64,000 bases of DNA, taken from Escherichia phage Bp4. Within the stretch, counting starts at the first letter, position 1, and every line of letters starts with the position of its first letter. The stretch lies in sequence record NC_024142.2; one strand, 5' to 3'. The notes under the pieces were generated by a model. That model was not told where the DNA came from. It was given only the letters and a program-made list of their open reading frames with translations, and searched no databases. Below are positions 1-61,566 of this stretch, one piece after another. Position numbers and translations under genes: made by a program.

Positions 1-268
1 CGTTCTCTGAATCCTTGCAGAATTCCTCGATACTTTTCTTACGCAGAGTCTCAGTCATAGCTGTTTCCTCTGCCAGTTTATTAACAAAGGTATGCATTTC
101 TAATTTAGTACGAATGGCTTGTTTCTCTGCCATAGTACTTACATATGAATTAAGCATACCTACTGCTTTAGTTGCTGTACCGAAGGTATCTGCAACAGTA
201 GTAGCAGCTGAGTTAACAGTACCAAGTAAAGTTCCTGCGGTCATACGTACAGTAGCTTGAGTAGTCAT
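1..268 (-). CDS. hypothetical protein, 3' end truncated by window edge
   Basis: Minus-strand frame opens with ATG at 268-266 (MTTQATVRMTAGTLLG...) and runs past position 1 without a stop; the plus ORF 15..260 is its antisense shadow. Confidence 0.35.
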   Translation of the reverse strand, partial: MTTQATVRMTAGTLLGTVNSAATTVADTFGTATKAVGMLNSYVSTMAEKQAIRTKLEMHTFVNKLAEETAMTETLRKKSIEEFCKDSEN

Positions 269-469
269 GATGATAGCTCCAATAGTTGATGATAGGACGA
301 CATGTCCATAACATGCGGAGCATGTGTAACGTGTAAGGTGGGGTAGGGTAGTGGCTACACCGTCAACATACCGGGGGGGATGGTTGAGTGTAAGGGTGTA
401 GCCCCAGCCACACCACTGTAGCCATACATAACTATGCTACTTTTCATATGCAAAAATATGATAGCTATC

Positions 470-796
470 CTACTTATAAGCAGTTAAATAGGAGGAAGGA
501 ATCTGGGAGAGGATGTAGTCATAGTAATAGCAATATGCTTCACTATTGGTAGAGTTTATAGGCATACCTATGTAGTCAAACACCCATAAACAGAAATGAT
601 TGAGTTCGTGGATGAGTGTATGTAAAGGTTCCTTGAAGATACCAATCAATACACGATTACCAGAGTAAGTAGTATACCCTTTACAACCTTCCAAGTCTGG
701 CTCATACCCTTTAAGTTTCTTGTACTTTTTAATGAAGGTATCCCGGTCGAGTACTACTTCTAACTGCACCGGATAGGGTGATGTGTTTAGTTTCAT
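470..796 (-). CDS. small HExxH-motif (zincin-like) protein; may be the 3' part of a frameshifted gene with 729..1004
   Basis: ORF contains HTLIHELNHF (HExxH); 68-nt overlap with upstream ORF 729..1004 in another frame. Confidence 0.45.
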   Translation of the reverse strand: MKLNTSPYPVQLEVVLDRDTFIKKYKKLKGYEPDLEGCKGYTTYSGNRVLIGIFKEPLHTLIHELNHFCLWVFDYIGMPINSTNSEAYCYYYDYILSQIPSSYLTAYK

Positions 797-1004
797 TGTC
801 TTTCCTTATAGATTGGGGTGTTATCCTCGAAGGATAGGATGTACTTGTCTGTATTGAGATGCCATGGACTGAATCTACCCTGCCAGGACATTGGTGTACC
901 TGGTTCAAGTAGATGTACTTCTGCTTTCTTATTGTGTAAGAAAAGCAATCCTTGTAGTTCATGCAAGGACTGTTCGTCTGGAACCAGGATAAGTATATCA
1001 GCAT
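729..1004 (-). CDS. hypothetical protein or 5' segment of the HExxH gene
   Basis: Only open minus-strand frame filling the gap between 796 and 1076; composition rather low-complexity. Confidence 0.25.
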   Translation of the reverse strand: MLIYLSWFQTNSPCMNYKDCFSYTIRKQKYIYLNQVHQCPGRVDSVHGISIQTSTSYPSRITPQSIRKDNETKHITLSGAVRSSTRPGYLH

Positions 1005-1075
1005 CTAGGTTAGCTACTTTTTATGGTGGGTGTATTCATCCCAAGGTATTTCTGAATAAATTTTACTGATAACCA

Positions 1076-1306
1076 TTAGCAGCTCTCGTCGCTAGATAAA
1101 TATGAGGTAGAAGGATACAGGGTAATTAGTCTACCTGTTAGGGTAGTAACTACCATAGGTTCACAAGAGGAGTAGATGTATACAACTACATTCTCTGGAA
1201 CTTCGATGGAAGTATCTATTTTAATAAAGGTAATAGGTACACCCAACATGAGGCAGGTTCCGATGAACTCATCTGCTTTTTCGCATTGTTCGTAGTACAT
1301 GGTCAT
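1076..1306 (-). CDS. small protein, paralog family member A
   Basis: Shares core motif ADEFIGTCLMLG with three downstream ORFs. Confidence 0.45.
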   Translation of the reverse strand: MTMYYEQCEKADEFIGTCLMLGVPITFIKIDTSIEVPENVVVYIYSSCEPMVVTTLTGRLITLYPSTSYLSSDESC

Positions 1307-1395
1307 AGGCGTGCTTATTCTAATCCAGTGAGATTTACCTACCCCAGATTAAGGGGACTGGTACTACGATAACTCAAACCATAGAAGCGCATACC

Positions 1396-1710
1396 TTACT
1401 TCCTTACATAGTAGTAACGGGATTCACCATCCTCATAGCGACAATCCCATTGGTAATCATCAGACACCATCATGTATGGGATAGGTTCCCCGGAGTTAAA
1501 GTTGGTATAGACAGATGGAGGAACAATACATACAACCTTACGGTCATTACCTGCTAAGAAGAGTTGACCCCTTACCTCATGGTAGTCCTCTAAAGTAGGA
1601 ACCAGGATTACTTGCTGGGGGTTGCTGTCCATGACTTCTTCTAAAGTGAAGTCTCCTGCATACATAGCCCCCCTTCCAGTAAAACTAGGGATGGTCATTA
1701 TGAATTTCAT
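1396..1710 (-). CDS. small protein, paralog family member B
   Basis: Core motif LEDYHEVRGQLFLAG; likely start at the internal Met (MTIPSF, about 1698). Confidence 0.45.
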   Translation of the reverse strand: MKFIMTIPSFTGRGAMYAGDFTLEEVMDSNPQQVILVPTLEDYHEVRGQLFLAGNDRKVVCIVPPSVYTNFNSGEPIPYMMVSDDYQWDCRYEDGESRYYYVRK

Positions 1711-2074
1711 GATTGGTTCTCCTTCCTTTAGGGATAGGTCTGAAGTAAATGGAAAGTGTTTTATTAAAGACGTTACGGGAAGCTATCAATTCCCAACCGG
1801 GTACTTTATAGAAGCGTATACCAGGGAAGAACTCTTTGAACCCGCCATAACGGGTGAGGTCATACACCTTTGGTTCGGTAAGTATCTCAGTATTGAGTTG
1901 TAGGTTTGATAAGAAAAGAGAGCCAACAATCTCATGGGACTCTTCACAGTTAGGTAAGAACACAGATTGCCAGGGAGCAATGAACTTACTTACTGTTTCT
2001 GGTTCCCCAAGTAGATAAGGTTCTTGCTTATGAAGTACTCCGGTAATATCAATATCAAAAGCGTAGATGCTCAT
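1685..2074 (-). CDS. small protein, paralog family member C
   Basis: Core motif CEESHEIVGSLFLSN. Confidence 0.45.
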   Translation of the reverse strand: MSIYAFDIDITGVLHKQEPYLLGEPETVSKFIAPWQSVFLPNCEESHEIVGSLFLSNLQLNTEILTEPKVYDLTRYGGFKEFFPGIRFYKVPGWELIASRNVFNKTLSIYFRPIPKGRRTNHEIHNDHP

Positions 2075-2273
2075 AATTGCATTCCTCCAGAAAAAGAAAT
2101 GGGGTAGAGCCTCTCGACTCTACCCTTACCGTTTTCAATCACGGGTCAGTTCATCACCCTAGATACATGTGTATCGTTAGCCTACTAGGTAGGAAAGGAG
2201 CCGGGCAACCCTGACTGTAGAAGTTATTAACTCTTTACGAGTACCGCCACTGTCTACTAGGCGGCATGACTAA

Positions 2274-2564
2274 TCACATCGTCACCGTCATCCGAACACT
2301 GTCTTTGCTTCGCCTGACGGAGACACTATGAGGTAATTTTGTGAAGAACACAATAGCTGAAGGGCGTTTTTCTAAAGAGTAAGTTTCTCTTGGTTCTAGG
2401 ATTTTAATGCCTGGACGATTCTCTAAAAGCATCATCCCAGCTAATTCATGGTAGGTATCTTCATCATGTGTGATGATAATATCATCTGAAAGGATACCTG
2501 CTTTGGTGTGGTCTATCTCTGCGTATTCATCTTTGGAGTCATGGACTCTCATATAGATTCTCAA
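2274..2564 (-). CDS. small protein, paralog family member D
   Basis: Core motif DEDTYHELAGMMLLEN. Confidence 0.45.
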   Translation of the reverse strand: MRIYMRVHDSKDEYAEIDHTKAGILSDDIIITHDEDTYHELAGMMLLENRPGIKILEPRETYSLEKRPSAIVFFTKLPHSVSVRRSKDSVRMTVTM

Positions 2565-2733
2565 AGGTTACTCCTTTTGGGAATAGGGTCATCGGAACAT
2601 TACATACTATTTAGTATCATGAACTTTTTCTATATCATGACTAAAGTGTAACTGTATGGTATCGTTTCTTCAAGGGTAACTCACCCCAAGAAAGAATCTT
2701 CTTTAATAGACATAACTTTGTAGCGAGATAAGT

Positions 2734-3423
2734 ATGAGTGAACTAACTAAGCAGCAGATTGTTAATGCCTTACCTGCTAACTTCAAAAACAGTGTGACCC
2801 AGGAGTTGGTAGACACGATCAACAACATAACCCAAGACCAACTGGTTGCTGAGTCTTTCCGTGAAAACTTTATCTCCTACTCTGGTGTAATGAAGGAAGG
2901 TAAGTTCAAGACACAGGACTACATGAATGCAGTTCAGTATGTGACTTATAAACACATGGGCTATTCAAATAAGGAAGCCTACTTCAAGACATTCCCTAAC
3001 CGACAAGCAGAACTTGTTGCACGAGGAACCAGCGAGAAAGATATTAGTGCTTATGTATCTGCATATCACAGAGGTAAGTTAGTTAACCTCATCATGGAAC
3101 AAAGTTTGGTTCCAGTGTGGATTGTGAACCAGGACAATTATCAGAAGGCAATCAATGTTCAGGTTGAACTGATGACTTCAGCAGCAAGTGAGAAGGTAAG
3201 ATGTGATGCAGCTAACTCTATCCTTACTCATTTGGCTAAACCAAAGGACCAGGTAACAAATATCAATCTGGATTTAAGAGAGAACTCTGGGTTAACTGAC
3301 CTCAAGGCAACACTTGCTGCATTAGCTGAACAACAAATCAATGCAATCAATAGTGGTGTACCCACCAAAGAGGTTGCTGGTTCTAAACTAGTACGTGCTG
3401 ATGAGGACATTACAGATGTCTGA
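2734..3423 (+). CDS. hypothetical protein, possibly terminase small subunit (position only)
   Basis: 229-aa ORF immediately upstream of and overlapping the large terminase start. Confidence 0.35.
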   Translation: MSELTKQQIVNALPANFKNSVTQELVDTINNITQDQLVAESFRENFISYSGVMKEGKFKTQDYMNAVQYVTYKHMGYSNKEAYFKTFPNRQAELVARGTSEKDISAYVSAYHRGKLVNLIMEQSLVPVWIVNQDNYQKAINVQVELMTSAASEKVRCDAANSILTHLAKPKDQVTNINLDLRENSGLTDLKATLAALAEQQINAINSGVPTKEVAGSKLVRADEDITDV

Positions 3424-22902: not shown

Positions 22903-23769
22903 ATGGCTCAGATAACGTGGAGAAATGTTGATGCACCTAACTTCTCTGGAGTTGGTGACAGCATTCGCACATTTGGTAGCATGATTGGTAACGCCACCTC
23001 CGGCTTAAGTGATGCACTGGGTAATTTCCAGAACGCTGCCAAGCAGGAGGCTGGCAATGCCGTCATGATGAATGCTATGCAGTACCAAGACCCGAATGAG
23101 TACCGTAATGCTTTGGCATCTGGTGCACTGTTTCAGGGGGTTGATCCTTCACTGGTAAATCAGCGTACCCTCCAAAACCTGGATGAACGAGCAGGTACAT
23201 TACTGACACAACAAGGACAGCAGGGAACCAATGACTACATTGCTTATCGCTTTGGTCGTTTACAGGATACTAACACTGCATTAGATAATGCTTCCCCGGC
23301 TATTCGTTTACTGTCTGAGGCTTATCAGTCCGGTGACCAGAACCGTATTAATGCTGCATTAAGTCAGACCCGTGATGCACTGTCTGCACTCCCTGCTGAC
23401 CAACAACTGGAGATGATGGGTCGTCTACAAGGTCAGGGTGGTCAGGCTATTAATCAGGCACAGAATCGTTTTGATTTAGGTGTTGCTCAACGTAATGATG
23501 CTGACAGTCAGGCAGCTATGGGTGTAATGTCACAGATTACCCGTGGTGCTGAGAACCTAATGATGCCCGTCTGTTGGCAGAAGCATACAGTAAGAACTTG
23601 TCCCCAGTTGCACAGGCACGTTTACAGAGTTTACTGGCTAGTACTTACCGGTGTATACGGCAATGGCGTAGGTGCTGCGTCTGCTCCTGGTACTGCTGGT
23701 ACTCGTCAGGGTTCCCCTTACGATGTTACTTACCAGTTTGCCGGTACATCTACCCTATTACTCAAATGA
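22903..23769 (+). CDS. internal virion protein (hypothetical); about 30 codons read out of frame between 23555 and 23650
   Basis: Open frame, but an alternate frame reads protein-like (EPNDARLLAEAYSKNLSPVAQARLQSLLASTY) where the annotated frame reads Cys/Trp/His-rich. Confidence 0.45.
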   Translation: MAQITWRNVDAPNFSGVGDSIRTFGSMIGNATSGLSDALGNFQNAAKQEAGNAVMMNAMQYQDPNEYRNALASGALFQGVDPSLVNQRTLQNLDERAGTLLTQQGQQGTNDYIAYRFGRLQDTNTALDNASPAIRLLSEAYQSGDQNRINAALSQTRDALSALPADQQLEMMGRLQGQGGQAINQAQNRFDLGVAQRNDADSQAAMGVMSQITRGAENLMMPVCWQKHTVRTCPQLHRHVYRVYWLVLTGVYGNGVGAASAPGTAGTRQGSPYDVTYQFAGTSTLLLK

Positions 23770-24029
23770 GTATTGGTGATGTAATTAAACACCAGGATGG
23801 TATGAAGTCGAATCAAGGTGCTTCACCTGTTGGTGCATTCCAGATTAACCAAGCTACTCTGAAAGACTTCGCTCCCAAAGTTCTTGGTTCAGATTGGCAA
23901 AGCCAGCCTCTTTCTCCTGAGAACCAGGATAAGATTGGTAAGGCTATCTTCGAGTCTCGTAAGAACGGTAACCTTAAAGATACTTGGGCTGCTCTGCCTA
24001 ACTCTACCCAGGTGCTTATAAGGATATGA
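23766..24029 (+). CDS. hypothetical protein, ATGA-coupled to neighbours
   Basis: ATG overlaps the upstream stop (ATGA); 87 aa. Confidence 0.4.
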   Translation: MSIGDVIKHQDGMKSNQGASPVGAFQINQATLKDFAPKVLGSDWQSQPLSPENQDKIGKAIFESRKNGNLKDTWAALPNSTQVLIRI

Positions 24030-24862: not shown

Positions 24863-24872
24863 TACTAATAAA

Positions 24873-24895: not shown

Positions 24896-24955
24896 ACTGG
24901 CTTACTGTAGAGTAAGTTACCTATATACGATATAAGTTTGAACAGGAAACATGCT

Positions 24956-27900
24956 ATGTCAACATTTGACCGTCTGGCAGGTTTCGCAGACAGCATCACT
25001 AATGCTAAGCAAGTCGATGTCTCTACTGCAACCTCTCAGAAGCAAGCTGCACAAGGGCAAAGCCCTTTCCAATTAACCCCAGAGAATGCTTACAATCTCC
25101 AGACTGGACGAGTAGGTAATCTTGGAATCGGTGCATTCGAACCAGGTTCACTTCAGGCAGATTTCACTCAAGCCTCCCCATTAGAAATCATTAATAAGTA
25201 CGGTAATGAGCAAGGTTTACAAATTCTTAATAGCCGAGCTAATGCTGCTGATGTTGTACGTCAGGACTTATCTAAACAACGTACTAACGCAGAAGCATTT
25301 GGCGATACTCTTTCTGGTGTTGGTCTTGGTGTTGCTAATACCCTTGGGGGCATTGCTGCTCTTGGTACAGGCTTGGTCAATGATAATGCCGGGGCATCCA
25401 TTGCTTCCGGTCTTGACTGGTTGAATAAAGGTGTACACAACCTACAGTCTGATGCACTGAATGCTCGTCGTAATGTAGTACAGAACCAGAACGTAATATC
25501 TGCTCAAGAGAATGAGAAACTCTATAAGCAAGATATTGCTAAAGGAGAAAGTGAACTCGTTGCTTCTCTGTCTCGTATTGGACGAGATGCCTATGATTCT
25601 GTTGCTAACACCCTGTCTAATGACATGGCTGCTACAGATGGCCTGGCTGAAGGTGTTGGTTCATTCTTTACTGGCGGTCCACTTATCCGTGGTGTATCTG
25701 CACTTGGTAAAGTAATGGTAGGTGGTGATAAAGCTGTTAAGGGTATTACCTTAGCTGCTGAATTAGGTTATCGTCCTGCACGTATTGCACAGACTGCTGG
25801 TCGTGTTGCTGCACCTGCTATAGCAATTGGTGGTATGGAAGCTGGTGGTGCATACCAACAGACTGCTAATGAAATTATGGAAATGCCATTCAGTGAACTG
25901 GCTGCTAAATCTCCTGTATACCAACAGCATATTAAAGACGGTCTGTCTCCTGAAGAAGCACGTCGCCAGACTGCATCTGAAACAGGTATCACTGCTGCTG
26001 GCTTAACTGCTCCAGTTGCTGCTCTTACTGCTCCACTGGTATCCAAGTTTGAACTTAACCCACTTAAGGTAGGTTCACTGGCTGGTGCTGGTTCTAACAT
26101 GCTGCGTGAGACTGTAGAAGAAGGTATCCAGTCTGGTACAAGTCAGTTTGCACAAAACAAGGCAATTCAGGGCAATGTAGATGCTGAGCGTGATTTGCTT
26201 AAAGGTGTGGGTGAACAAACTGGTCTGGGTGCATTGTATGGCTTCGGTTCTGCTGGAGTTGCTCAAGCTCCTGGTGCAACTGTTAAGGCTGCTGGTGCTG
26301 CCGTTGGTCCTGCTGTACGTACTACCCTGGCTGGTGCTTCTTTGGCTGGTAAGGCACTAGCAAAAGTAGCTTCACCTATTACTAACATCCTGGTTCAACG
26401 TGGGGAAGAAGTTGCTAAGCGTAATGAACAAGCATCCCCCGTATCTGATGCTACGGTTAACGCTGCTGCACAAGAAGCTACTGCTCAGGCAGAACAAGCT
26501 CAAGCAACTGTTCAGGAAGCAGTGGATGCAATGGATATTTCTCCAGAAGAGAAAGCTGCTGCTACCCAGTATGCTGCTGACTTAACTCAGGCAATGAAGT
26601 TTGACCCGGTAGAATTGGAACAAACTAACCCAGCAATCCGTGAAGCTGTTTCTGGTTCCACTAACCGTGTAGAAGCTATTCAGAAGATGGCTGACTTGGT
26701 TAATACTGCCGAAGACCCTAACGTTCAAATGGAAGCTGCAATCCAGATGTATGACAATATCATGTCTATGGATAGCTTCATTAACCGTGACCCGGGTGCT
26801 TTGGCTAATCTGGAACAAGGTTCCCCTGCTGCTGCAATCGTAGACCAATTCTCCGGCCTGATGGCTAACGTACAGAATACCCCTAAAGTACTCCGTGCAT
26901 TTCGTGCCATCCATTCCATGATTCAGGAACAGGCTGAAGCGGGTAAGCTGAAAGCTACTGAAGAAGCTAATCAAGCCCAAGCAAACAACATTGCTATGGC
27001 TGCTGATGTATCTCCAGAAGTGCTGGATGCAGATTCAGTGAACATGGTTCTGAAACATGCAAGTGAAGGTAAGATTACACTGGGGAATCGTCAACGTGCT
27101 GCCCTGCAATCTGCTGCTGCCTTATTACAGGGTGCACGAGAGTTCGACGCTAAAGCAGAAGAACTAGGCTTACGTCCTCAAGATATTGTTAGTAAACAGA
27201 TTAAAACCGATGAGTCTCGTTCTAATGAAGGACAGTACTCTGCGTTGCAACATGCGAAACGCATTCGTTCTGCGTATAACTCTGGTAACTTCGATTTGGC
27301 CTCCGCTTATCTGAGCGATTTTATGAAGTTCGCCCAGCACATGCAGAATAAGGTCGGAGCGTTGAATGAGCATCTGATTTCGGGGAATGCGGATAAGAAT
27401 AAGTCTGTTCATTATCAGGCTCTCTCGCCTTCCCGTGAATGGGTACGTAGTCGTACTGGCCTCGGTGTCAATCCTTACGATACCAAGTCTGTTAAGTTTG
27501 CCCAGCAAGTAGCACTGGAAGCTAAGACCGTAGCTGACATTGCTAACGCACTTGCTACGGCTTACCCGGAGCTTAATGTTTCTCATGTGAAAGTTACCTC
27601 GTTGGATTCACGTCTGAACAAGCCAGCTGCCCAGGTAGTTAAAGAGTTCCGTCAAGGTGGTCTTGATGCCACTCAGTCTCAACAGACTAATGAACCAGTG
27701 AATCAGGTTGATGAAACTCCTGCACTAGTGCAAGAGGACACCACTACTGTACAGCCTAAAGATAAACTAGTGGTAGAAAATAAGACTGCTCCTACTAAAG
27801 AGACTAGTCCAAAAGCAGAAGAAGTCTCTACTACTGAATCTGAAAGAGATGCTTATGTGAAAGAAAATACTATTTCACAGGAAATTCTTAATAAGAATGG

Positions 27901-30900
27901 TGACCGTAGAGAAAGCCCTTGGTTGTTTGCTGATGGTACTGTGGTTGGTTCTAATGGCGACCATATCAGCCTGTCCGACGTATTTGGGCATGATGGTTAT
28001 CGTGATATGTCTCTGGATACTGGTGCTATTCGCTCTACCTTCTATAAAGGTAGTGAGCAACCATTTGTATCTCTGCAACTGTTTGATAATCAGAAACTGA
28101 CTGCTGAACAATTCAATACTGTTCAATCTTTCGTTGAAGCAAACAATGCACTGATTCAGGTTGGTGTAGATACGTCTGGGCGTAATACCAATAATGTTGA
28201 GAAGGAAGAAGTATCACTAGCTCAACTGAAAGCAGACTATACCGTCGGTGGTAAACCTCTATCGGAAATGGAAACAGTGTTCCCTGTTTATAACAATGAC
28301 AAGACACCGAACCAGTTCATTAAATCATTCTCTCTTCCAGAAGAACCTAAGTCTCGTACCATTGGTTCCGAATCTCCTTTGACTGATGTTAAGAAAGCAC
28401 TGTCTTCTGCTGCTCGCTTTGAAGCATTTACTCAAAAAGAAAATAACGCTCTCACAAGTGATGTGATTAAGCGTTACCAGGACTTATTTGAGTTTGGTGA
28501 AACTCTGAAGACTACTCTGTCTGACCGTCTGGCTAAGTTCCTTGCTAACAAGAACGTTGGTAAACGTTTTGCGGAAGGTACTGAGGCTAACCGTTGGGTA
28601 GGTGGTAAGTTACTTAACATCGTAGAGAAAGATGGTGACACCTTTAAGTTCAATGACCAGCTATTAGAAACTGCTGTACTTGCTGGTCTGCAATGGCGAT
28701 TGACTGCTACACAGAATGCTGCTGTTAAAGACATGAAAGACGTAGCTGCTATTACTGGTGTGGAAGCATCTCTGCTACCAGAAGGTATTCTGGCTGACTT
28801 CGAGAATGCTCAGACCCTGGTTGAAGCTACTAACTCACTAGCTCAAAAGATTGAATCCTATTGGGGTTTGAATCGTAATCCTAATGCACCTTTGGGGTAT
28901 ACCAAGGGTATCCCAATGGCAATGGCTACAGAGATTCTGTCTTCCCTTATTGAGATGGGTGAAGTTAAAGAGTCCATGTTAGATGTGTCTGAGATTGACC
29001 CAGAATCTAATAAGACTGTTGGTCTGTATACCATTGAGAAGCTGGATGATAACGATGCCATTAATAAATTCCCTACTGCTATTGAGGAAACTGTCCTTTT
29101 AGAACCAGTAGAGAAATTGTATCTGGGTGATGACATTCCTTCCGTGGCTCAAACTCAGTTACGTAACCCGGCTGTTAAGAATACCCCGGAACAGAAAGCT
29201 GCTCTCAAAGCAGAACAAGCTACTGAGTTTCGTGTACATATGCCGATGGTTAATTTCTATGAAGCATTGGGTCGTGACAACATTCTGGAGTTAATGGGTG
29301 CTGGTGCTCTTAATCCAGAATTGCTGAATGTGAATACTGCTAAGTCTCTGGAAGGTAAAAACCTGTCCGTGTCCATGGCGTATGATTCCTTGTTTGGTGT
29401 AATCAATCAAATTAAGGAACAGGAGAATGGACTGGATACACCTATTCACTATGGCTACAACATGACCCGTGTAGGTCGTATGCAGATGCTTGGTAAGAAC
29501 AACCCACAGTCCAGCAAACTGGTACGTGAAGCAATCTTACCAACCTTCTCTACCATCGACTTGAGTAATGAAAACAGTCAAACGTTCTCTGACTTCCAGT
29601 TAGGTCTGGCTCAGGCATTGGGCATCAAAGTTCATAAAATGTCCCGTGAAGTTATGTCGGATGAGCTGACTAAAGCTCTGGAAGGTAAATTGAAACCTGC
29701 CGTTGATATGATGGTCGAGTTTGATAAGTCTGGTCACTTACCTGCTGATGCAGTGGATATTCTGAAGACTTCCTTGGGGAATGATAAATCATTCGTAGCT
29801 CTTATGGCCCTGATGGAATATGCCCGTTACCTGAATAGTGATGATCGTGCCAACTTTAATACCCCACTGTACGTTGAAGCCGATGGTGTAACCAATGGAC
29901 CAATTAACGCAATGGTATTAATGACTGGTGGTAAGTTTACTTCAGACTGGATTAAGAATACTGCTAAGGGTGGTTTGTTCTTTGGTAAAGCTGGCAAGAC
30001 TATGAACGAACACCATTCGCACGAGGATAGTGTTGACCTGTATGAAGCATCCACTAATAGTCTGCAACAGGCACTGAATGAATTACGTAATAATTACCGT
30101 AACAACGTTCCTGTTACGAATCAGATGAAGCATCTTCAGAAGTTAATGGACCTGTTCATTAAAGACTTCAATCTTAATGAAGATGGTACTCTGGACCTGA
30201 AACGTGGTATCGCTAAAAACCCACTGACCATTACCATCTATGGTTCTGGTGCTCGTGGTATTGCTGGCAAAATGGTAAGTGCAATTACTGATACCATCTA
30301 CGAACGCTTCAGTGACGTTCTACAAGCCCGTGCTGCTGACCCTAGCATTTCCCCAGCTATGGCTATGTTTGGTAAGGAGGCTGCGTCTGAGGCTGATGCT
30401 CAGGCTATGCTGGATACTTTCCTTACTTCTATGGAAGCACTAACTGGTAATGTTCCGGTTATGCGTAAAGGTGAGTTGTCTATTCAGCAGGTAGATGGTG
30501 CTCTGACTGGTAAGTTAGACCCTCAGAAGTTTACTGTATCCGGTAATGCTCTGAAGAACTTACAAGAGAACATGCTTCATCTGTTCGTTGAACCAATGCG
30601 TACTGGTATCCGAAATACCGTGGGTGAAGGTCTGATGTACTCTACTGAGAACTTGCAGAAAGCTACCCAGATTCAATCTCTGGTTCTGCAAGACATGTTC
30701 CAGCAACGTGTTCAGGAGAAACTGGCAGAAAAAGAAAAAGACCCAACATGGAAGAAGGGTGATTTCTTAACACAGAAAGAACTGAATGAAATCCAGGCTT
30801 CATTATCTCCACTGGCTCCAATGATTGAGACTGGTTCACAGACTTTCTACATTGCTGGTAGTGAGAATACTGATGTTGCTAACCAAGTATTGGCTACCAA

Positions 30901-33900
30901 CTTAGATGACCGTATGCGTGTGCCAATGAGCATCTATGCTCCTTCACAGGCAGGTGTAGCAGGTATTCCATTTATGACCATCGGTACAGGTGATGGCATG
31001 ATGATGCAGACCCTTTCTACTATGAAAGGTGCTCCGAAGAATACCCTGAAAATCTTTGATGGTATGAACATTGGTATTAATGACATTACTGATGCAAGCC
31101 GTAAAGCTAATGAGGCTGTATATACTTCCTGGCAGGGTAACCCTATCAAGAATGTTTATGACTCCTTTGCTAAGTTCATGAAGAACGTAGACTTCAGCAA
31201 ACTGTCTGATGAAACCAAACAAGCTATCGCTAAATCTGCACTGGAATACGACCAACGTGAGGGTGCTACTGATGACCTGTTACGTGTTGGTGCTGAACAG
31301 ATTGAACGTAATCTGCGTAACATTGCTCTGGGTGTGGATATTCGTCATAAGGTAATGGACCAGGTACAGGTCACTGTTGACCAGATGGCTGCTGTTGGTG
31401 CTCCTTATGTGAACAACGGTAAAATCTCTCTGGAAGGTCTGACTGTAGACCAGCAAGTAGCTAAGCTGAACGAACTGTTTGATGCTGAATTAAACAAGCG
31501 TCGTGATGCAGTACGTGCTGCTAAAGCAGAACCAGTGAAAGAAGTGCCAGCAATGGAACAGGTCGGTCGTGTACTGAAGTCTGGTGTACGTCTGCTGTCT
31601 AATGCTGCCATTACTAAACTGGCTAAAGAGATGTCCCCTGAACAACAAGCAGTACTGAAAGAAATACAGAAATCTCTTGCTGCTAAAGACTATAAGGTTG
31701 TTTATGGTACGCCTTCTCAACTGGATGCCTATGCTATTGAGAAGAACATTACTCGTCCAGCACCGGAAGATATTGAAGCTGCTGAAGCAGGTAATGCATA
31801 TGGCTGGACTAACTTTGAAGATAAAACCATCTACTTAGTTACCCCTTCCTTAGAGACTCTGGTTCATGAATTGGTACATGCCTCTACTTTTGAATCTGTA
31901 CTAGCTCACTACGAGGGTACTCCTAACGAAGCAGTCCAGAATATTGAAGACCTGATGAACCAGTTCCGTGCTCTTGATGTTAAGAATGAATCTCCGGCAG
32001 TACGTGAAGCATATGCCGATGCACTCAATACCATTAATGGCCACTTGTCCAATGGCTTTATTGAACCAGCAATGGCTAAAGCTGCTGCACTGAATGAGTA
32101 CATGGCTTGGGGTTTAACTAACCGTGAACTTATAAGTAAGCAGAAGAAAACCACTGCACTTAAAACTATGGTTCAGGCTGTATATGAAGCAATCAAACGT
32201 CTGGTATTCGGACGTAAGAAAGCTCCTGCTAATGCAGATGATATGTTCTCTGGCTTACTGTTTAACTCTGCTGTAGTAATGCGTGGGCAGGCTCCTACTG
32301 CTGCTGTAGCCAAAGATACTACCTTGTTCCATAACAAAGCATACGGTGACAATACTCGTCTGGAAGAGCTAGGGAAAACCTTCGATAAGCTGATTACTAA
32401 CTACATTGGTTCAGAACCAGTACAGCAAGTAATTCGTAAAGGTAAGTTCTCTGATGCAGTAGTAAAAGCAACTAAAGTAACTCGTGATGTTCAGGCTCAT
32501 GGCTTCACCATGAATATGCAGGAACAGCGTCTCTTCACTAACATTGTTGCTGCACTAGCTACTGAGGCTGCTATTAACCCTGCTGCTATGGCTCGTGCAC
32601 AGGAATACTACACGCATGTTACTAAGAACCTGACTGTTGAAGCGTTCATGGCTGACCCGGATAGTACTAACCCTGCTGACCGTTACTATGCACAGCAGAA
32701 GTTCGATACCATCATGGGTGCTAATAACATTGAGTTTGATGCACAGGGTCGTTCTTCCTTACTACCTACCTTTGTTGGTCTGGTAATGGTAAGTGAAGAA
32801 GTACGTAAGGTGCTGGCTGATATTTCTGTTATGAAAGCAGATAAAAAATCTGGCAATACTGTTGATGCAATGCTGACTAACATCGGTACTGCTGCAATGG
32901 CTAGTCTGAATGCTCGTGTAGCAGGTGATACTAAAGCCACTAACGTACAGGAAGGTATGGATGCACTGGCTCAGACAATCATGCAGACCAGTCTTAACGC
33001 AGAATCCTTCTATGATTCCGTTGCTACTCCTACCGGTAATGCTATCGACCGTGCTAACCAGTATTTGGTGGACTCTATTGATGCATTGTCTACCCGTGCT
33101 TTAGAAGGTGCTCGTGAAGTTGCAGCTAATACCAAGAATCCATTGGTCAAAGGTGCTGCTCATGCTGCACAACTGGTAGCTGCTATTGCTACAGAGAAGA
33201 ATGGTGCAATCGTAGCCGAAGGTGTTATGGCTGCAATGAACCAGGGTAAAGTATGGCAACCTTTCCATGACCTGGTTAATGACATAATTGGACGTACTAA
33301 GAGCAATGCTTCTGTATATGATTTGATTAAAGCAGTACGAGCACAAGTGCAGGCTGACCGTCAACAGTTCCGTGAACACTTGCCTACCACTATCGCATCC
33401 AAGTTCAGCCGTAAACTGACTAATGATGAGTGGAAAGCAATGCATACCGGTATGGGTAAAACTGACTTAGCTGTTCTGCGTGACACTATGTCTTTGGATG
33501 AAATCCGTGACCTGCTGACTGACCAGAAGAATGTTGACCGTGAGGTTAATAAACTGGAAGCAGATTTGCAGAAACAAGCAGGACGTAACTGGCCCCTGAT
33601 TAACCGTAAATCTAAGCAACTGGCTCAGTATATGATTAACGGTACAGTCGGTAATAACCTGCTGCGTAATGCTACTGCAATTTCTCGTTTACTGGGTGAA
33701 CGTAAGACTACACGTTCTGTTGTAGATGTAGCTCAGCTGGATAAACTGATTACCCTGTATGCACTGGAAGCAATGAGTAAGACTGACCGTGAGGTGTTAT
33801 CTTCACTGGCTCAGACAGAAGTTGAAGGCATGGACTTTGCTACTTCTTACCTGGTTGGTCAGCGTAAAGACGAAATGGCTAAAGCCAAGTCTGATAGCCG

Positions 33901-35668
33901 TGCAACCTTGAACCAGTACAAAGGATACATCCCAACTGAGAACAAACAGGGTGTTAACCTGATTGTTGCTGAAGATAATCAGTTTGCTGATTTGATTGAG
34001 AAATCCTATGTACGTCTTGGTACTTATCAGGGTAGCTCTGCTAACCGGGGTCCAGCACGTAGTTACTACTTTGCACCGGTACAGGCACAGGCTCCGTTCT
34101 CACAAGGTATCCTACAGAACGTTCGAAATACTGCTGGTGGTGTAGACCTTGGTACAGGCTTTACGATGGGAACCATGGTAGCTGGTCGTATTACTGACAA
34201 GCCTTCCGTAGACCGTATCACTAAAGCACTGGCTCGTGGTGAACGTGGCAATGAACCACTGCTGCCTGTATATGATGCTAATGGTAATGTAGTTGCTTAT
34301 GAGCAATCTATTGACCCTAACATGCTGAAGCACATTGAGGGTGAGAATCATCTTGCTCGTGCAATCGGTGTATGGCGTGGTCGTCAGGTGGAAGAAGCTA
34401 AGGCTCAGCGTTTCAACGATATGCTAATTGAGAACCTGCATAGCATGTATGAGAACGACATTAAGATGTCTGCTTCTAATAAGTCCCAGTACGTTAACCT
34501 TCTTGGTTCTAAACTGGACCCAGTAACTGCCGATGCCCTTAAGCTGATGAACAGTGAAACTCGTCAGAAAGCAGAAAGTCTCTTTGGTCCAGGTGAATTG
34601 TGGGTGCGTCGTGACATGCTTAATGATGCTCTGGGTTATCGTGCAGCTTCTGTAGGAGATGCCTGGTCTGGTAATTCTCGTTGGTCACCAGAAACACTGG
34701 ATACCTTCAAGAAAGCTATGTTGGGTGTATTCGGCAACCGTGCCTATAAGTATGTAATGGGTGGTGAGAACCTGGTTCAGAACTTAGTTAAAGAAGCTAA
34801 GACCCTGATTGTAGTTAAGTCAGTAGTTGTACCTGCTGTTAACTTCCTGGCTAACCTTTACCAGATGGTTGCTCGTGGTGTACCTGTTAAGAACATTGCT
34901 AAGAGCATCCCACAAAAAACTGCTGAGATTAACCAGTATCTGAAATCTCGTCTGCGTCAGGTAGATGCAGAAGCAGAATTACGTGCAGCTACTAACCCGA
35001 ACCAGATTCGTAAACTCAAGGCTGAGATTCAGTCCATCTCTGATAGCCATAAACGTTTGAGTATCTGGCCTCTGTTGGAAGCTGGTGAGTTCTCTTCAAT
35101 TGCAGATGCTGGTATTGGCCGTGATGACATCCTGATTACTGAAGGTAAACTCCACGAATACATGGAAAAGCTGGCTGATAAGCTGCCTAAGTCTGTTCGT
35201 AACGCAGGTCGCTATGCACTTATCACTAAGGATACTGCTCTCTTCCAGGGTATTCAGAAGACGGTTGAGTACTCTGACTTTATTGCTAAAGCAATCATCT
35301 ATGATGAACTGACTCAGCGTAAAGGTAAGACTCGTGAAGAAGCACTGGGGCGTGTAACGGAAGAGTTCATTAACTATGACCGTCTGCCTGGTCGATTCCG
35401 TGGGTATATGGAAAGTGTTGGTTTGATGTGGTTCTACAACTTTAAGATTCGTTCTGCAAAAGTTGCAGTGTCCATGATTCGTAATAACCCAGTACATGCT
35501 GCTATGGCTATGTTGGCTCCAACCCCTACCATGTTTGGTAACGTTGGTCTTCCTATTCAGGACAACATCTTTAGTATTGCTGCACAAGGCAATCTTGGTT
35601 ACTCCTTTGGTTTCGGTCAAGGCTTACGTGCCCACAACCTGAACCCTTGGCTCAACCTTACTAACTAA
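24956..35668 (+). CDS. giant virion-encapsidated RNA polymerase (N4 vRNAP-like)
   Basis: Single uninterrupted ~3570-aa ORF in the virion module; size and position are diagnostic of N4-like phages; ATG at 24956 with RBS AGGAAAC. Confidence 0.8.
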   Translation: MSTFDRLAGFADSITNAKQVDVSTATSQKQAAQGQSPFQLTPENAYNLQTGRVGNLGIGAFEPGSLQADFTQASPLEIINKYGNEQGLQILNSRANAADVVRQDLSKQRTNAEAFGDTLSGVGLGVANTLGGIAALGTGLVNDNAGASIASGLDWLNKGVHNLQSDALNARRNVVQNQNVISAQENEKLYKQDIAKGESELVASLSRIGRDAYDSVANTLSNDMAATDGLAEGVGSFFTGGPLIRGVSALGKVMVGGDKAVKGITLAAELGYRPARIAQTAGRVAAPAIAIGGMEAGGAYQQTANEIMEMPFSELAAKSPVYQQHIKDGLSPEEARRQTASETGITAAGLTAPVAALTAPLVSKFELNPLKVGSLAGAGSNMLRETVEEGIQSGTSQFAQNKAIQGNVDAERDLLKGVGEQTGLGALYGFGSAGVAQAPGATVKAAGAAVGPAVRTTLAGASLAGKALAKVASPITNILVQRGEEVAKRNEQASPVSDATVNAAAQEATAQAEQAQATVQEAVDAMDISPEEKAAATQYAADLTQAMKFDPVELEQTNPAIREAVSGSTNRVEAIQKMADLVNTAEDPNVQMEAAIQMYDNIMSMDSFINRDPGALANLEQGSPAAAIVDQFSGLMANVQNTPKVLRAFRAIHSMIQEQAEAGKLKATEEANQAQANNIAMAADVSPEVLDADSVNMVLKHASEGKITLGNRQRAALQSAAALLQGAREFDAKAEELGLRPQDIVSKQIKTDESRSNEGQYSALQHAKRIRSAYNSGNFDLASAYLSDFMKFAQHMQNKVGALNEHLISGNADKNKSVHYQALSPSREWVRSRTGLGVNPYDTKSVKFAQQVALEAKTVADIANALATAYPELNVSHVKVTSLDSRLNKPAAQVVKEFRQGGLDATQSQQTNEPVNQVDETPALVQEDTTTVQPKDKLVVENKTAPTKETSPKAEEVSTTESERDAYVKENTISQEILNKNGDRRESPWLFADGTVVGSNGDHISLSDVFGHDGYRDMSLDTGAIRSTFYKGSEQPFVSLQLFDNQKLTAEQFNTVQSFVEANNALIQVGVDTSGRNTNNVEKEEVSLAQLKADYTVGGKPLSEMETVFPVYNNDKTPNQFIKSFSLPEEPKSRTIGSESPLTDVKKALSSAARFEAFTQKENNALTSDVIKRYQDLFEFGETLKTTLSDRLAKFLANKNVGKRFAEGTEANRWVGGKLLNIVEKDGDTFKFNDQLLETAVLAGLQWRLTATQNAAVKDMKDVAAITGVEASLLPEGILADFENAQTLVEATNSLAQKIESYWGLNRNPNAPLGYTKGIPMAMATEILSSLIEMGEVKESMLDVSEIDPESNKTVGLYTIEKLDDNDAINKFPTAIEETVLLEPVEKLYLGDDIPSVAQTQLRNPAVKNTPEQKAALKAEQATEFRVHMPMVNFYEALGRDNILELMGAGALNPELLNVNTAKSLEGKNLSVSMAYDSLFGVINQIKEQENGLDTPIHYGYNMTRVGRMQMLGKNNPQSSKLVREAILPTFSTIDLSNENSQTFSDFQLGLAQALGIKVHKMSREVMSDELTKALEGKLKPAVDMMVEFDKSGHLPADAVDILKTSLGNDKSFVALMALMEYARYLNSDDRANFNTPLYVEADGVTNGPINAMVLMTGGKFTSDWIKNTAKGGLFFGKAGKTMNEHHSHEDSVDLYEASTNSLQQALNELRNNYRNNVPVTNQMKHLQKLMDLFIKDFNLNEDGTLDLKRGIAKNPLTITIYGSGARGIAGKMVSAITDTIYERFSDVLQARAADPSISPAMAMFGKEAASEADAQAMLDTFLTSMEALTGNVPVMRKGELSIQQVDGALTGKLDPQKFTVSGNALKNLQENMLHLFVEPMRTGIRNTVGEGLMYSTENLQKATQIQSLVLQDMFQQRVQEKLAEKEKDPTWKKGDFLTQKELNEIQASLSPLAPMIETGSQTFYIAGSENTDVANQVLATNLDDRMRVPMSIYAPSQAGVAGIPFMTIGTGDGMMMQTLSTMKGAPKNTLKIFDGMNIGINDITDASRKANEAVYTSWQGNPIKNVYDSFAKFMKNVDFSKLSDETKQAIAKSALEYDQREGATDDLLRVGAEQIERNLRNIALGVDIRHKVMDQVQVTVDQMAAVGAPYVNNGKISLEGLTVDQQVAKLNELFDAELNKRRDAVRAAKAEPVKEVPAMEQVGRVLKSGVRLLSNAAITKLAKEMSPEQQAVLKEIQKSLAAKDYKVVYGTPSQLDAYAIEKNITRPAPEDIEAAEAGNAYGWTNFEDKTIYLVTPSLETLVHELVHASTFESVLAHYEGTPNEAVQNIEDLMNQFRALDVKNESPAVREAYADALNTINGHLSNGFIEPAMAKAAALNEYMAWGLTNRELISKQKKTTALKTMVQAVYEAIKRLVFGRKKAPANADDMFSGLLFNSAVVMRGQAPTAAVAKDTTLFHNKAYGDNTRLEELGKTFDKLITNYIGSEPVQQVIRKGKFSDAVVKATKVTRDVQAHGFTMNMQEQRLFTNIVAALATEAAINPAAMARAQEYYTHVTKNLTVEAFMADPDSTNPADRYYAQQKFDTIMGANNIEFDAQGRSSLLPTFVGLVMVSEEVRKVLADISVMKADKKSGNTVDAMLTNIGTAAMASLNARVAGDTKATNVQEGMDALAQTIMQTSLNAESFYDSVATPTGNAIDRANQYLVDSIDALSTRALEGAREVAANTKNPLVKGAAHAAQLVAAIATEKNGAIVAEGVMAAMNQGKVWQPFHDLVNDIIGRTKSNASVYDLIKAVRAQVQADRQQFREHLPTTIASKFSRKLTNDEWKAMHTGMGKTDLAVLRDTMSLDEIRDLLTDQKNVDREVNKLEADLQKQAGRNWPLINRKSKQLAQYMINGTVGNNLLRNATAISRLLGERKTTRSVVDVAQLDKLITLYALEAMSKTDREVLSSLAQTEVEGMDFATSYLVGQRKDEMAKAKSDSRATLNQYKGYIPTENKQGVNLIVAEDNQFADLIEKSYVRLGTYQGSSANRGPARSYYFAPVQAQAPFSQGILQNVRNTAGGVDLGTGFTMGTMVAGRITDKPSVDRITKALARGERGNEPLLPVYDANGNVVAYEQSIDPNMLKHIEGENHLARAIGVWRGRQVEEAKAQRFNDMLIENLHSMYENDIKMSASNKSQYVNLLGSKLDPVTADALKLMNSETRQKAESLFGPGELWVRRDMLNDALGYRAASVGDAWSGNSRWSPETLDTFKKAMLGVFGNRAYKYVMGGENLVQNLVKEAKTLIVVKSVVVPAVNFLANLYQMVARGVPVKNIAKSIPQKTAEINQYLKSRLRQVDAEAELRAATNPNQIRKLKAEIQSISDSHKRLSIWPLLEAGEFSSIADAGIGRDDILITEGKLHEYMEKLADKLPKSVRNAGRYALITKDTALFQGIQKTVEYSDFIAKAIIYDELTQRKGKTREEALGRVTEEFINYDRLPGRFRGYMESVGLMWFYNFKIRSAKVAVSMIRNNPVHAAMAMLAPTPTMFGNVGLPIQDNIFSIAAQGNLGYSFGFGQGLRAHNLNPWLNLTN

Positions 35669-60580: not shown

Positions 60581-60675
60581 GGAACCACTGGTTTAAGGAA
60601 TTGGGTAATAACCTCTTCCATACGACCAGCACCTTTACCAGGCATCTGTCCACCAGCCATTTTCTGGCTCTGCAT
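60478..60675 (-). CDS. vWA-domain protein, middle segment (frame-shifted)
   Basis: Frame open upstream: HFGQSQGAVVNNVVRAMQSQKMAGGQMPGKGAGRMEEVITQF. Confidence 0.45.
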   Translation of the reverse strand: MQSQKMAGGQMPGKGAGRMEEVITQFLKPVVPWQEVLMNFLPTLMTHIIRGPDPTVVTLTSIYLP

Positions 60676-61234
60676 TGCACGTACTACGTTGTTGACAACA
60701 GCACCCTGGGACTGCCCGAAGTGGGGATTTCATGTCGCCAGCAAGACCTGCTCCAGCACCCCCTGACGGCTTCTGCCTTTTCTGAGGGTTCTTCATCAGG
60801 TCATCGTAGATGTCTTCTTCGACCCATCCTTTATATTGAGGGTCTTTGCAAATGCCTTCATCAATGCCAGTGAACTTGTAACCATCTTCTTCTAACTGAA
60901 GGTTAATGAAGTGGTCACAAGCCTGGTTCCAGACTTCTGGGTCACGGCTTCCACGTCGGATGTCGTGTAGATATGCCACATGCCATAATTCATGCATAAG
61001 CACTGTTTCTCTTACATCTGGACACATCCAGATAAAGAAATCTGGGTTGAAATGGAGTTCTATCCCATCAGTACATGCAGTGGGACAATCCTCACGTTTC
61101 CATGAGAATTTAAGACTACACAGTAATGAACCAAAGAAGGCTGCGCTGCGACCTAAAAAAGCCTGCGCTTGGATTCTATCGTACTCCCTCATTAGCTGCT
61201 CATCTGTGAGACTATGCGTAGGTATACTGTTCAT
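60635..61234 (-). CDS. vWA-domain protein, N-terminal metallopeptidase-like segment
   Basis: HELWHVAYLH motif; C-terminal ~30 residues Cys-rich out-of-frame; removing one C from the CCCC run (plus GGGG 60723-60726) restores the frame. Confidence 0.55.
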   Translation of the reverse strand: MNSIPTHSLTDEQLMREYDRIQAQAFLGRSAAFFGSLLCSLKFSWKREDCPTACTDGIELHFNPDFFIWMCPDVRETVLMHELWHVAYLHDIRRGSRDPEVWNQACDHFINLQLEEDGYKFTGIDEGICKDPQYKGWVEEDIYDDLMKNPQKRQKPSGGAGAGLAGDMKSPLRAVPGCCCQQRSTCNAEPENGWWTDAW

Positions 61235-61566
61235 TAGGGTGCTCCATGATTGGGGTGATAGCCATACAGTTTTTCAGCCGCTTTTCTGGCGTCTATGGCA
61301 TCTTGCTTGTCTGCAAAAGTGCCCAAACTTACCAGACGTGTTCCATCAGATATAGCTGCATACCAGATGGAATCACGCTTGTGCCAGTACACACCAGTAA
61401 CACCACTGGAATTAGTTACCCGTTTCTTTTGGTTTCTGGTGTTAGTTCTGCTGTCTACTAATCTAAAGTTACTTAGAAGGTTATTAACCCTATTGTGGTC
61501 TAGGTGATCAATCTGCATACCTTTCGGGATAGGTCCATTGTGCATTTCCCATATGACACGGTGCAC
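61234..61566 (-). CDS. HNH homing endonuclease with AP2 domain (annotated ORF is the 3' two-thirds; gene likely 61234..61713)
   Basis: IDHLDHNRVNN HNH core and SGVTGVYWHKRDSIWYAAISDG AP2-like; the N-terminus (MNWNDILVYINGELFW) lies in another frame, rejoined by adding one T to the T5 run at 61628-61632. Confidence 0.75.
   Translation of the reverse strand: MHRVIWEMHNGPIPKGMQIDHLDHNRVNNLLSNFRLVDSRTNTRNQKKRVTNSSGVTGVYWHKRDSIWYAAISDGTRLVSLGTFADKQDAIDARKAAEKLYGYHPNHGAP

What the first reader, a model, noticed from the sequence alone, without database searches (positions are those of the whole stretch)
470..1004. Small HExxH (zincin-like) protein, possibly one frameshifted gene
ORF 470..796 carries HTLIHELNHF, a minimal metallopeptidase-type motif, in a ~100-aa protein. 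The only upstream ORF (729..1004) overlaps it by 68 nt in another frame, so the two may be a single ~190-aa gene. Small phage zincins can act as host-takeover or anti-repressor proteases.
Basis: partly seen in the sequence, partly recalled or inferred. Interest (0 to 1): 0.45.

Follow-up and report, generated by a model that had tools for sequence, protein, structure and literature searches.

The report
Intact small phage zinc-peptidase-like gene
ORF 470..796 is a complete, conserved 108-residue gene of an N4-like coliphage that has the signature of a minimal zinc protease of unknown target; it is not half of a frameshifted gene, and the real frameshift is a sequencing-type error in the gene next door.

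Summary
The ORF (470..796, minus strand, 108 aa) and its HTLIHELNHF motif are real. The protein is 100% identical to Escherichia phage Bp4 EpBp4_0002 and to PD38 AXY81365.1. It matches PHROG phrog_1365 (function unknown) over its full length.

It is not a fragment. ORF 729..1004 is a spurious alternate frame with stops or no ATG in relatives. The true upstream gene is 793..1076, whose stop overlaps the ATG (ATGA). That gene is broken in this window by a one-base homopolymer deletion at 1018-1022. This is one of 36 such deletions against PD38 over 64 kb; none lies in 470..796.

In 130 divergent relatives (565 clusters at E<=1e-3), H63, E64, H67 and E86 are invariant, and Y90, G40 and Y8 are at least 90% conserved. 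This gives HExxH-x18-E, a Glu-zincin signature. AlphaFold2 (pLDDT 93) predicts beta-alpha-beta-beta-alpha(HExxH)-alpha(E86)-alpha, the mini-zincin layout. Fold searches against solved structures were not significant, and no Pfam family matches.

Neighbouring genes vary but often include lysis and terminase genes near the genome end.

Best reading: a stand-alone minimal Glu-zincin metallopeptidase whose substrate is unknown. This is an ordinary but uncharacterised member of a known superfamily.

The parts
470..796 (-). Complete gene for a 108-aa, 12.7-kDa, pI 6.8 mini Glu-zincin-like protein (phrog_1365). ATG at 796..794, TAG stop at 472..470.
   Evidence: It is 100% identical to Bp4 EpBp4_0002 and PD38 AXY81365.1. 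dN/dS against PD205 is 0.16, from 11 nucleotide differences.
596..610 (-). HELNH (H63 E64 L65 N66 H67). Proposed as two zinc ligands plus the catalytic general base, on the predicted active-site helix (residues 57-76).
   Evidence: H63, E64 and H67 are invariant in 130 divergent representatives and in 83 sequences.
539..541 (-). Codon of E86, the proposed third zinc ligand, at the start of the predicted 'glutamate helix' (residues 85-97). It lies 19 residues after H67 (HExxH-x18-E).
   Evidence: E86 is invariant.
527..529 (-). Codon of Y90, one helical turn after E86. A possible auxiliary active-site residue (inference).
   Evidence: 98% conserved.
677..679 (-). Codon of G40, at the start of predicted strand 40-45. 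This may be the substrate-binding edge strand (inference).
   Evidence: 97% conserved.
803..807 (-). Shine-Dalgarno-like AAGGA, 6 nt before the ATG and inside the 3' end of the upstream gene. With the ATGA overlap at 796..793 it suggests translational coupling.
   Evidence: Read directly from the sequence.
793..1076 (-). True upstream neighbour (phrog_16338; 94 aa in PD38). In this window it is split into two frames by a one-base deletion in the T5 run at 1018-1022. It is not part of the zincin gene.
   Evidence: The PD38 version matches phrog_16338 at positions 1-97 of 108, E 1.5e-41.
729..1004 (-).
   Evidence: No family match. It is interrupted or lacks a start codon in five relatives.

Best explanation
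ORF 470..796 is an intact, separately translated gene of a Gamaleyavirus (G7C/Bp4-like, N4-like Schitoviridae) coliphage. It encodes a stand-alone minimal Glu-zincin.

Proposed mechanism (inferred from the zincin paradigm, not shown here):
- H63 and H67 on the active-site helix, and E86 on the following helix, bind one zinc ion.
- E64 acts as the general base that activates the zinc-bound water.
- Strand 40-45, which starts with the near-invariant G40, would bind the substrate backbone.
- Y90 may assist catalysis or position a ligand.

The protein has no signal peptide or membrane segment and is near neutral, so it should act in the cytoplasm of the infected cell. It is an accessory gene with no fixed partner. 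In many lineages it lies next to lysis and terminase/packaging genes, or at the right end of the linear genome. I therefore infer a peptidase of narrow specificity that cuts a host or phage protein, probably late in infection. The substrate is unknown.
For: Gene is real and complete:
- Full-length match to phrog_1365, E 1.9e-30.
- 100% identical protein in Bp4 and PD38.
- Annotated as its own CDS in PD38, PD205, ZQ2, PGN829.1, IME11 and KP8.
- dN/dS 0.16.
- No difference from PD38 inside the gene.

Catalytic signature:
- 565 cluster representatives at E<=1e-3, typically 100-130 aa.
- All 148 distant ones carry HExxH.
- H63, E64, H67 and E86 are invariant; Y90 is 98%, G40 97% and Y8 90% conserved.

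Fold:
- AlphaFold2 mean pLDDT 93.3, pTM 0.85.
- Predicted elements: strand 11-15, helix 18-29, strands 40-45 and 48-53, helix 57-76 (HExxH), helix 85-97 (E86), helix 101-105.
- This is the three-stranded minimal zincin layout described for mini-zincins of about 110 aa (PMC3890501).

- Sub-threshold Pfam hits: SprT-like in 14 of 83 members, DUF4344 in 10 of 83, plus Astacin, eCIS_core and Peptidase_M78.
- PDB sequence hits: BMP1, Spartan, thermolysin.
- Foldseek: SPRTN at rank 2.
- BFVD neighbours annotated PolyVal metallopeptidase, SprT-like, BepA and IrrE.

Context:
- In isolate phages the gene lies between terS and terL (Possum) and between endolysin and Rz spanin (Axy21).
- In 79 IMG/VR loci the zincins form 12 clusters at 50% identity. 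Lysozyme or Rz lies upstream, or terminase or portal downstream, in 8 of the 12.
- In PD38 it is the last gene before the genome end.
Against: - No Pfam or NCBIfam family reaches threshold.
- The zincin assignment therefore rests on motif, spacing and predicted secondary-structure order. I could not inspect model coordinates to confirm that H63, H67 and E86 converge.
- The structurally closest described class, mini-Glu-zincins, had no detectable activity when first described (PMC3890501).
- Two close relatives carry HALNH (P0089) and YELNH (P0098). These could be inactive variants or sequencing errors.
- Expression timing, metal content, activity and substrate are all untested.
- The lysis/terminase association is not universal. 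phiEap-2 and Det7 lack it, and the IMG/VR sample is dominated by one lineage (51 of 79 loci).
Confidence: 0.6

Rival explanations
1. The protein is a zincin-fold metal-binding protein that is not a protease. It would act as a binder, inhibitor or scaffold for a host or phage protein, with the metal site being structural.
For: Mini-Glu-zincins of the same size showed no detectable activity when described (PMC3890501). Two natural variants have lost E64 or H63. No significant match to any active peptidase.
Against: The general-base glutamate E64 is invariant across 130 divergent representatives, together with all three putative ligands. That is hard to explain if only metal binding or only protein binding mattered.
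Confidence: 0.15
2. The protein is a metal-dependent hydrolase acting on a non-peptide substrate, for example a YbeY-like RNase or an amidase acting on a small molecule or nucleotide signal.
Confidence: 0.1
3. The protein is an ImmA/IrrE-type (M78) anti-repressor protease that cleaves a repressor.
Against: Peptidase_M78 was matched by only 1 of 83 members, at E 0.14. No repressor was annotated or recovered among the neighbours examined, although several of them remain unannotated. The host phage and most isolate carriers belong to groups generally regarded as virulent, which is my own knowledge and not tested here. At about 108 aa the protein is also smaller than the ImmA/IrrE proteases I know of (my own knowledge).
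Confidence: 0.05
4. The protein is a SprT/Wss1/Spartan-like protease that removes DNA-protein crosslinks or acts on DNA-bound proteins, for example during packaging.
For: SprT-like is the Pfam family hit by most members (14 of 83, best E 0.036). Spartan appears in the PDB sequence search (E 0.73) and in the Foldseek search (rank 2, E 0.75). The gene often lies near terminase genes.
Against: All of these hits are below threshold. The SprT/WLM third ligand, the histidine in HExxHxxxxxH, is absent; residues 68-75 are FCLWVFDY. There is no zinc ribbon or basic DNA-binding region, and pI is 6.8.
Confidence: 0.05
5. ORFs 470..796 and 729..1004 are two halves of one frameshifted gene of about 190 aa.
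For: The window does carry many homopolymer deletions (36 in 64 kb), so frameshifted genes do occur in it.
Against: No indel lies in 470..1004 relative to PD38. The alternate-frame ORF has stops or no start codon in five relatives and no family match. The 108-aa ORF is a full-length family member. The region 793..1076 is occupied by a different conserved gene.
Confidence: 0.01

Closest known systems
Mini-zincins and mini-Glu-zincins (Acel_2062/DUF1025; proabylysin/projannalysin, provisional MEROPS M95)
   Same: About 100-110 residues. Three-stranded sheet, backing helix, HExxH active-site helix, then a very short C-terminal part carrying the third ligand, which is Glu in the mini-Glu-zincins (PMC3890501).
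Thermolysin/M1-type Glu-zincins (HExxH-x18/19-E)
   Same: The spacing between the second His and the Glu ligand is the same: E86 is 19 residues after H67. A conserved residue lies four positions after the Glu, Y90 here. The spacing in M1 and M4 enzymes and the Asp at that position in thermolysin are from my own knowledge. Thermolysin is a weak hit (E 1.3).
   Different: Those enzymes are much larger, with big N- and C-terminal domains and further motifs such as GxMEN (my own knowledge). The similarity here is limited to the motif region.
SprT-like / Wss1 / Spartan (PF10263)
   Same: A small HExxH protease core. It is the most frequent sub-threshold Pfam hit, and SPRTN is Foldseek rank 2.
   Different: The third ligand is His in HExxHxxxxxH, which is absent here. 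All scores are below threshold. No DNA-binding module.
ImmA/IrrE/CapP (Peptidase_M78, COG2856)
   Different: No Pfam match, different His-to-Glu spacing (my own knowledge), no partner repressor gene, and this protein is much smaller.
Other HExxH elements of the same phage: virion RNA polymerase C1 subdomain and the DUF2201_N protein
   Same: The profile hits share the pattern 'G...hairpin...TL(V/I)HELxHA'. hhalign against a vRNAP C1 alignment gave probability 88.8%. N4 vRNAP C1 is reported to carry a conserved HExxH (PMC13434306).
   Different: The hhalign signal collapses to P 0.07-0.22 when the HExxH block is masked; shuffled controls score at most 14.0. The Glu aligned to E86 is not conserved in vRNAPs. 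The similarity is therefore motif-level, not specific homology.

Membership tests
PHROG phrog_1365 (function unknown) | Significant full-length match to the family profile. | tested here: met
   E 1.9e-30, residues 1-102 on profile positions 6-115 of 127. All 83 divergent relatives also match.
Zincin superfamily (clan MA) | HExxH on an alpha-helix, conserved across the family. | tested here: met
   H63, E64 and H67 are invariant. They lie in predicted helix 57-76.
Zincin superfamily (clan MA) | A mixed beta-sheet and backing helix preceding the active-site helix, with significant fold similarity to known zincins. | tested here: inconclusive
Glu-zincin subclan | [quoted passage not shown] | tested here: met
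   E86 is invariant, lies at the start of helix 85-97, and is 19 residues after H67. That it ligates zinc is inferred.
Zincin metallopeptidases (function) | Binds one catalytic zinc and hydrolyses peptide bonds. | not testable with these tools
   Needs biochemistry.
Mini-Glu-zincins (M95: proabylysin, projannalysin) | Detectable homology to the solved members. | tested here: not met
ImmA/IrrE (Peptidase_M78, PF06114) | Match to PF06114 and an adjacent HTH repressor substrate gene. | tested here: not met
   No match for the window protein; 1 of 83 relatives at E 0.14. No repressor was annotated or recovered among the neighbours examined, though several of them remain unannotated.
SprT-like / WLM (PF10263) | HExxHxxxxxH (third His) and a match above the Pfam threshold. 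| tested here: not met
   No His at residues 68-75 (FCLWVFDY). The best member E-value is 0.036, below threshold.
PhageMetallopep (PF18894) | Homology to the family; its members are adjacent genes in some prophage loci. | tested here: not met
   hhalign probability 3.8% against neighbours from 16 loci (11 distinct sequences) that carry PF18894.
aKG-HExxH peptide hydroxylases (TIGR04267) | Match to the family model. | tested here: not met
   8 of 83 members only, at E>=0.058.

The most novel reading that the evidence does not exclude
phrog_1365 could be a phage-specific family of minimal proteases expressed with the lysis and packaging genes. They would cleave a conserved host factor late in infection, for example an abortive-infection sensor triggered by terminase, portal or capsid proteins. 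That would explain both the recurrent position beside terminase and lysis genes and the spread across unrelated phage groups: Schitoviridae, Ackermannviridae, Autographiviridae, Guernseyvirinae, and contigs that may be prophages. It would be a new anti-defence protease class built on the smallest known zincin scaffold.
Probability: 0.12. Interest if true: 0.65.

Novelty: new member of a known kind. Interest (0 to 1): 0.3.

Why it matters
The result gives a testable functional label, minimal Glu-zincin (HExxH-x18-E), to a widespread phage family that is everywhere annotated 'hypothetical'. The family has 565 clusters at 50% identity and occurs in about 90 isolate phage genomes per search, including phages of E. 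coli, Klebsiella and Salmonella, hosts for which phage therapy is being explored.

If the protein is active, it would be among the smallest proteases known, and its substrate could reveal a host-takeover or anti-defence step.

Practically, the work shows that this window's assembly carries systematic homopolymer deletions. Apparent frameshifts in it should be checked against PD38 before they are interpreted.

Tried and rejected
1. Fusion of 470..796 with 729..1004: rejected.
2. Programmed -1 frameshift at the A5G run of the upstream gene (CAT AAA AAG TAG): rejected in favour of a sequencing-type error. PD38 has A6 in frame. All 36 indels between the window and PD38 are window deletions in homopolymers, including non-coding ones.
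3. Sequence search of the PDB with the close-family profile found nothing. With the broad profile it found only motif-level hits at E>=0.17.
5. Pfam, NCBIfam and PADLOC on 83 members: nothing above threshold.
6. Specific homology to the vRNAP C1 HExxH subdomain: hhalign gave 88.8%, but the signal is driven by the motif block and disappears on masking.
7. Homology to the neighbouring PhageMetallopep: rejected.
8. Search for a conserved partner gene: none. Neighbours differ between lineages.
9. Scan of bacterial genomes: the broad alignment was too divergent to search with. The narrower alignment gave 600 pattern matches but none confirmed, so presence in cellular genomes was not established that way.
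10. Literature searches for a characterised homologue or for small phage HExxH anti-defence proteases found nothing relevant.

Full report
**What the window is.** Window 411..3400 is collinear with the right end of Escherichia phage PD38 (MH669274.1; Gamaleyavirus Bp4; Schitoviridae, i.e. N4-like), at 99.8% identity by megablast. The only differences there are five one-base homopolymer deletions. Window 1..410 matches the other end of that circularly written record. In PD38 orientation, the early and middle genes run rightward and the late genes (virion RNA polymerase through terminase) run leftward. A cluster of six small rightward genes fills the extreme right end. The finding's ORF is the last of these, 59 bp from the record end.

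Over the whole 64 kb, the window differs from PD38 by 36 single-base deletions and 3 substitutions. All deletions lie in homopolymer runs, and there are no insertions. This is the pattern of systematic homopolymer under-calling.

**Checking the observation.**
- ORF 470..796 (minus strand, 108 aa) and the HTLIHELNHF motif are as described.
- ORF 729..1004 exists and overlaps by 68 nt, but it is not the only upstream ORF.
- A third-frame ORF, 793..966, ends with a TGA that overlaps the ATG of the HExxH gene (ATGA at 796..793). It matches phrog_16338.
- In PD38 that gene is 94 aa (MVISKIYSEIPWDEYTHHKKVANLDADILILVPDEQSLHELQG...). In the window its first 20 codons are in another frame, because the T run at 1018-1022 has 5 bases rather than 6. 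The intact PD38 protein matches phrog_16338 end to end.
- The next gene upstream (1076..1392) is broken the same way at the C run 1342-1345.
- ORF 729..1004 has no family match. Its equivalent lacks an ATG in PD205 and ZQ2 and carries internal stops in PGN829.1, IME11 and KP8. In the same loci the 108-aa frame is intact, as is the true upstream frame where that gene is present.
- No PD38 difference lies in 470..1004.

The HExxH ORF is complete. An AAGGA sequence 6 nt before its ATG, together with the ATGA overlap, indicates translational coupling to the upstream gene.

**The gene is real and conserved.**
- The protein is identical to Bp4 EpBp4_0002 and PD38 AXY81365.1.
- It matches phrog_1365 over its whole length.
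- It is annotated as a separate CDS of 104-110 aa in every relative examined.
- dN/dS against PD205 is 0.16, from 11 differences.
- A profile search of 1.84 billion cluster representatives found 565 relatives at E<=1e-3. Nearly all of the 150 listed are 100-130 aa and match end to end.
- tblastn finds the family in about 85-95 isolate phage genomes per query. These include Gamaleyavirus, Kaypoctavirus and Cbunavirus (Schitoviridae), Kuttervirus (Ackermannviridae), Krylovirinae and other podoviruses, Guernseyvirinae, and the lambdoid mEp021. It is nearly everywhere annotated 'hypothetical'.

**Is the motif meaningful?**
- A single HExxH is weak evidence: about 1 is expected by composition in the window's ORFs, and 4 are seen.
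- Conservation is strong evidence. All 148 distant representatives carry HExxH.
- In an alignment of 130 representatives with at most about 50% mutual identity, H63, E64, H67 and E86 are 100% conserved. Y90 is 98%, G40 97% and Y8 90%. The 83-sequence alignment A3 agrees.
- Among 124 close relatives, only two clusters deviate: HALNH and YELNH.
- The spacing HExxH-x18-E is the classical Glu-zincin arrangement (my own knowledge of M1 and M4 enzymes).

**Fold.**
- AlphaFold2 with a 122-sequence alignment gave mean pLDDT 93.3 and pTM 0.85.
- Predicted elements: strand 11-15, helix 18-29, hairpin 40-45/48-53, helix 57-76 (HExxH), helix 85-97 (starting at E86), helix 101-105.
- This is the layout described for minimal zincins of about 110 residues: a three-stranded sheet, backing helix, active-site helix and a very short C-terminal part (PMC3890501).
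- Against predicted viral structures there were 21 matches at E<=1e-3 with TM up to 0.82. Of these, 20 are uncharacterised or unnamed phage proteins and one is annotated PolyVal metallopeptidase. Weaker hits are annotated SprT-like, BepA and IrrE.
- No Pfam, NCBIfam or PADLOC model reaches threshold. The most recurrent sub-threshold Pfam hits are zincin families.
- I could not inspect coordinates, so convergence of the three ligands is inferred from helix positions only.

**Context.** No neighbour is conserved across lineages.
- Possum: the gene lies between terS and terL.
- phiEap-2: between an endonuclease and a Lar-like/HNH protein.
- Det7: beside an NrdA-like fragment.
- Achromobacter phage Axy21: between the endolysin and the Rz spanin.
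- In 79 IMG/VR loci the zincins form 12 clusters at 50% identity, and one cluster holds 51 loci. The commonest arrangement is lysozyme, Rz, zincin, then PhageMetallopep or DUF2560, then terS and terL.
- Other clusters show zincin-PhoH-terL, zincin-portal, or lysozyme upstream. Two clusters sit in unrelated contexts.
- Together with the right-end position in Gamaleyavirus, Axy21, RSJ5 and Lolek, this suggests an accessory gene that tends to sit in the late region next to the genome terminus. The association is recurrent but not universal, and the sample is phylogenetically uneven.
- No repressor was annotated or recovered among the neighbours examined, although several of them remain unannotated. 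This, together with the lack of an M78 match, argues against an ImmA-like anti-repressor.
- The protein has no N-terminal hydrophobic stretch and a pI of 6.8, so it is probably cytoplasmic and is not an obvious DNA binder.

**Side lead tested.** The family profile weakly hits two other HExxH proteins of this phage.
- One is the virion RNA polymerase at residue ~2319 of ORF 24911..35665, in the C1 subdomain. C1 is reported to carry a conserved HExxH in N4 (PMC13434306).
- The other is a DUF2201_N 'putative metallopeptidase' at 60638..61273.
- hhalign of A3 against 13 vRNAP C1 segments gave probability 88.8% and P 2.5e-6.
- Masking the 5-10 columns around HExxH dropped this to P 0.07-0.22. Column-shuffled controls scored at most 14.0, against 43.9 for the real comparison.
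- The Glu aligned to E86 is not conserved in vRNAPs. The similarity is therefore motif-level only.

**Verdict.**
- Observation: partly confirmed.
- Zincin interpretation: supported at the level of sequence signature and predicted topology.
- Frameshift interpretation: refuted.
- The most likely mechanism is a stand-alone, cytoplasmic, zinc-dependent minimal Glu-zincin peptidase with an unknown host or phage substrate. I put about 0.8 on a zincin-type metal site, about 0.55 on an active peptidase, and about 0.2 or less on any particular biological role.
- It is a new, uncharacterised member of a well-known superfamily. It is of moderate-to-low interest unless a substrate is found.

Noticed in passing
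Whole window (e.g. 1017, 1341, 2122, 2673, 2690, 7415, 8443, 20879, 23555-24885, 36253-38651, 43605-63995): Relative to PD38, the window has 36 one-base deletions, all in homopolymer runs. There are no insertions and only 3 substitutions. This is the pattern of systematic homopolymer under-calling, so many apparent frameshifts or truncated ORFs in this window are probably artefacts.
   Followed up: yes
793..1076 (-) and 1076..1392 (-): Two small genes upstream of the finding (phrog_16338, 94 aa; phrog_12099, 105 aa in PD38) are each split by one of these deletions: the T5 run at 1018-1022 and the C4 run at 1342-1345.
   Followed up: yes
793..2564 (-): At least four of the small right-end genes look like distant paralogues. 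PHROGs 16338, 11661, 9160 and 7213 cross-hit at E 2.7e-4 to 0.24. They share a motif of the type 'ILVP..(D/E)..HE(L/V).G.LFL'. Function is unknown.
   Followed up: partly
24911..35665 (+), residue ~2319 (about nt 31865): The virion RNA polymerase carries HELVH in its C1 subdomain, conserved as HE..H in 12 other Schitoviridae. A conserved NEF(M)AW motif lies about 75 residues downstream and could supply a Glu ligand. Similarity to the small zincin is motif-level only.
   Followed up: partly
60638..61273 (-): A third HExxH protein of the phage: DUF2201_N 'putative metallopeptidase domain' (Pfam E 2e-35). Homopolymer deletions at 60717 and 60722 lie inside this ORF's range.
   Followed up: partly
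2102..2125 (-): A terminator-like hairpin (10-bp stem followed by a T-rich tail) lies between the first and second genes of the right-end cluster. PD38 has one more G-C pair, because one of the window's deletions falls in the stem.
   Followed up: no
1..270 (-) and about 300..410: The gene starting at 270 and running off the window is the N4 gp1-like left-end gene; IME11 annotates its homologue as Gp1. The G-rich stretch around 370-410 contains the TGGGGCT-like sequence used to define the G7C-type left end (bioRxiv 10.1101/542787). The window therefore spans the junction between the right and left genome ends.
   Followed up: partly
IMG/VR loci, e.g. L057 3316..3954: In 15-16 related loci from IMG/VR (possibly prophages), the mini-zincin gene is immediately followed by a second HExxH gene of the Pfam family PhageMetallopep (PF18894). 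This gives two putative metallopeptidases in tandem upstream of the terminase. No homology between the two was detected.
   Followed up: partly
Relatives P0089 and P0098: Two close homologue clusters carry HALNH (catalytic Glu lost) and YELNH (first His lost). They could be inactive variants or sequencing errors.
   Followed up: no
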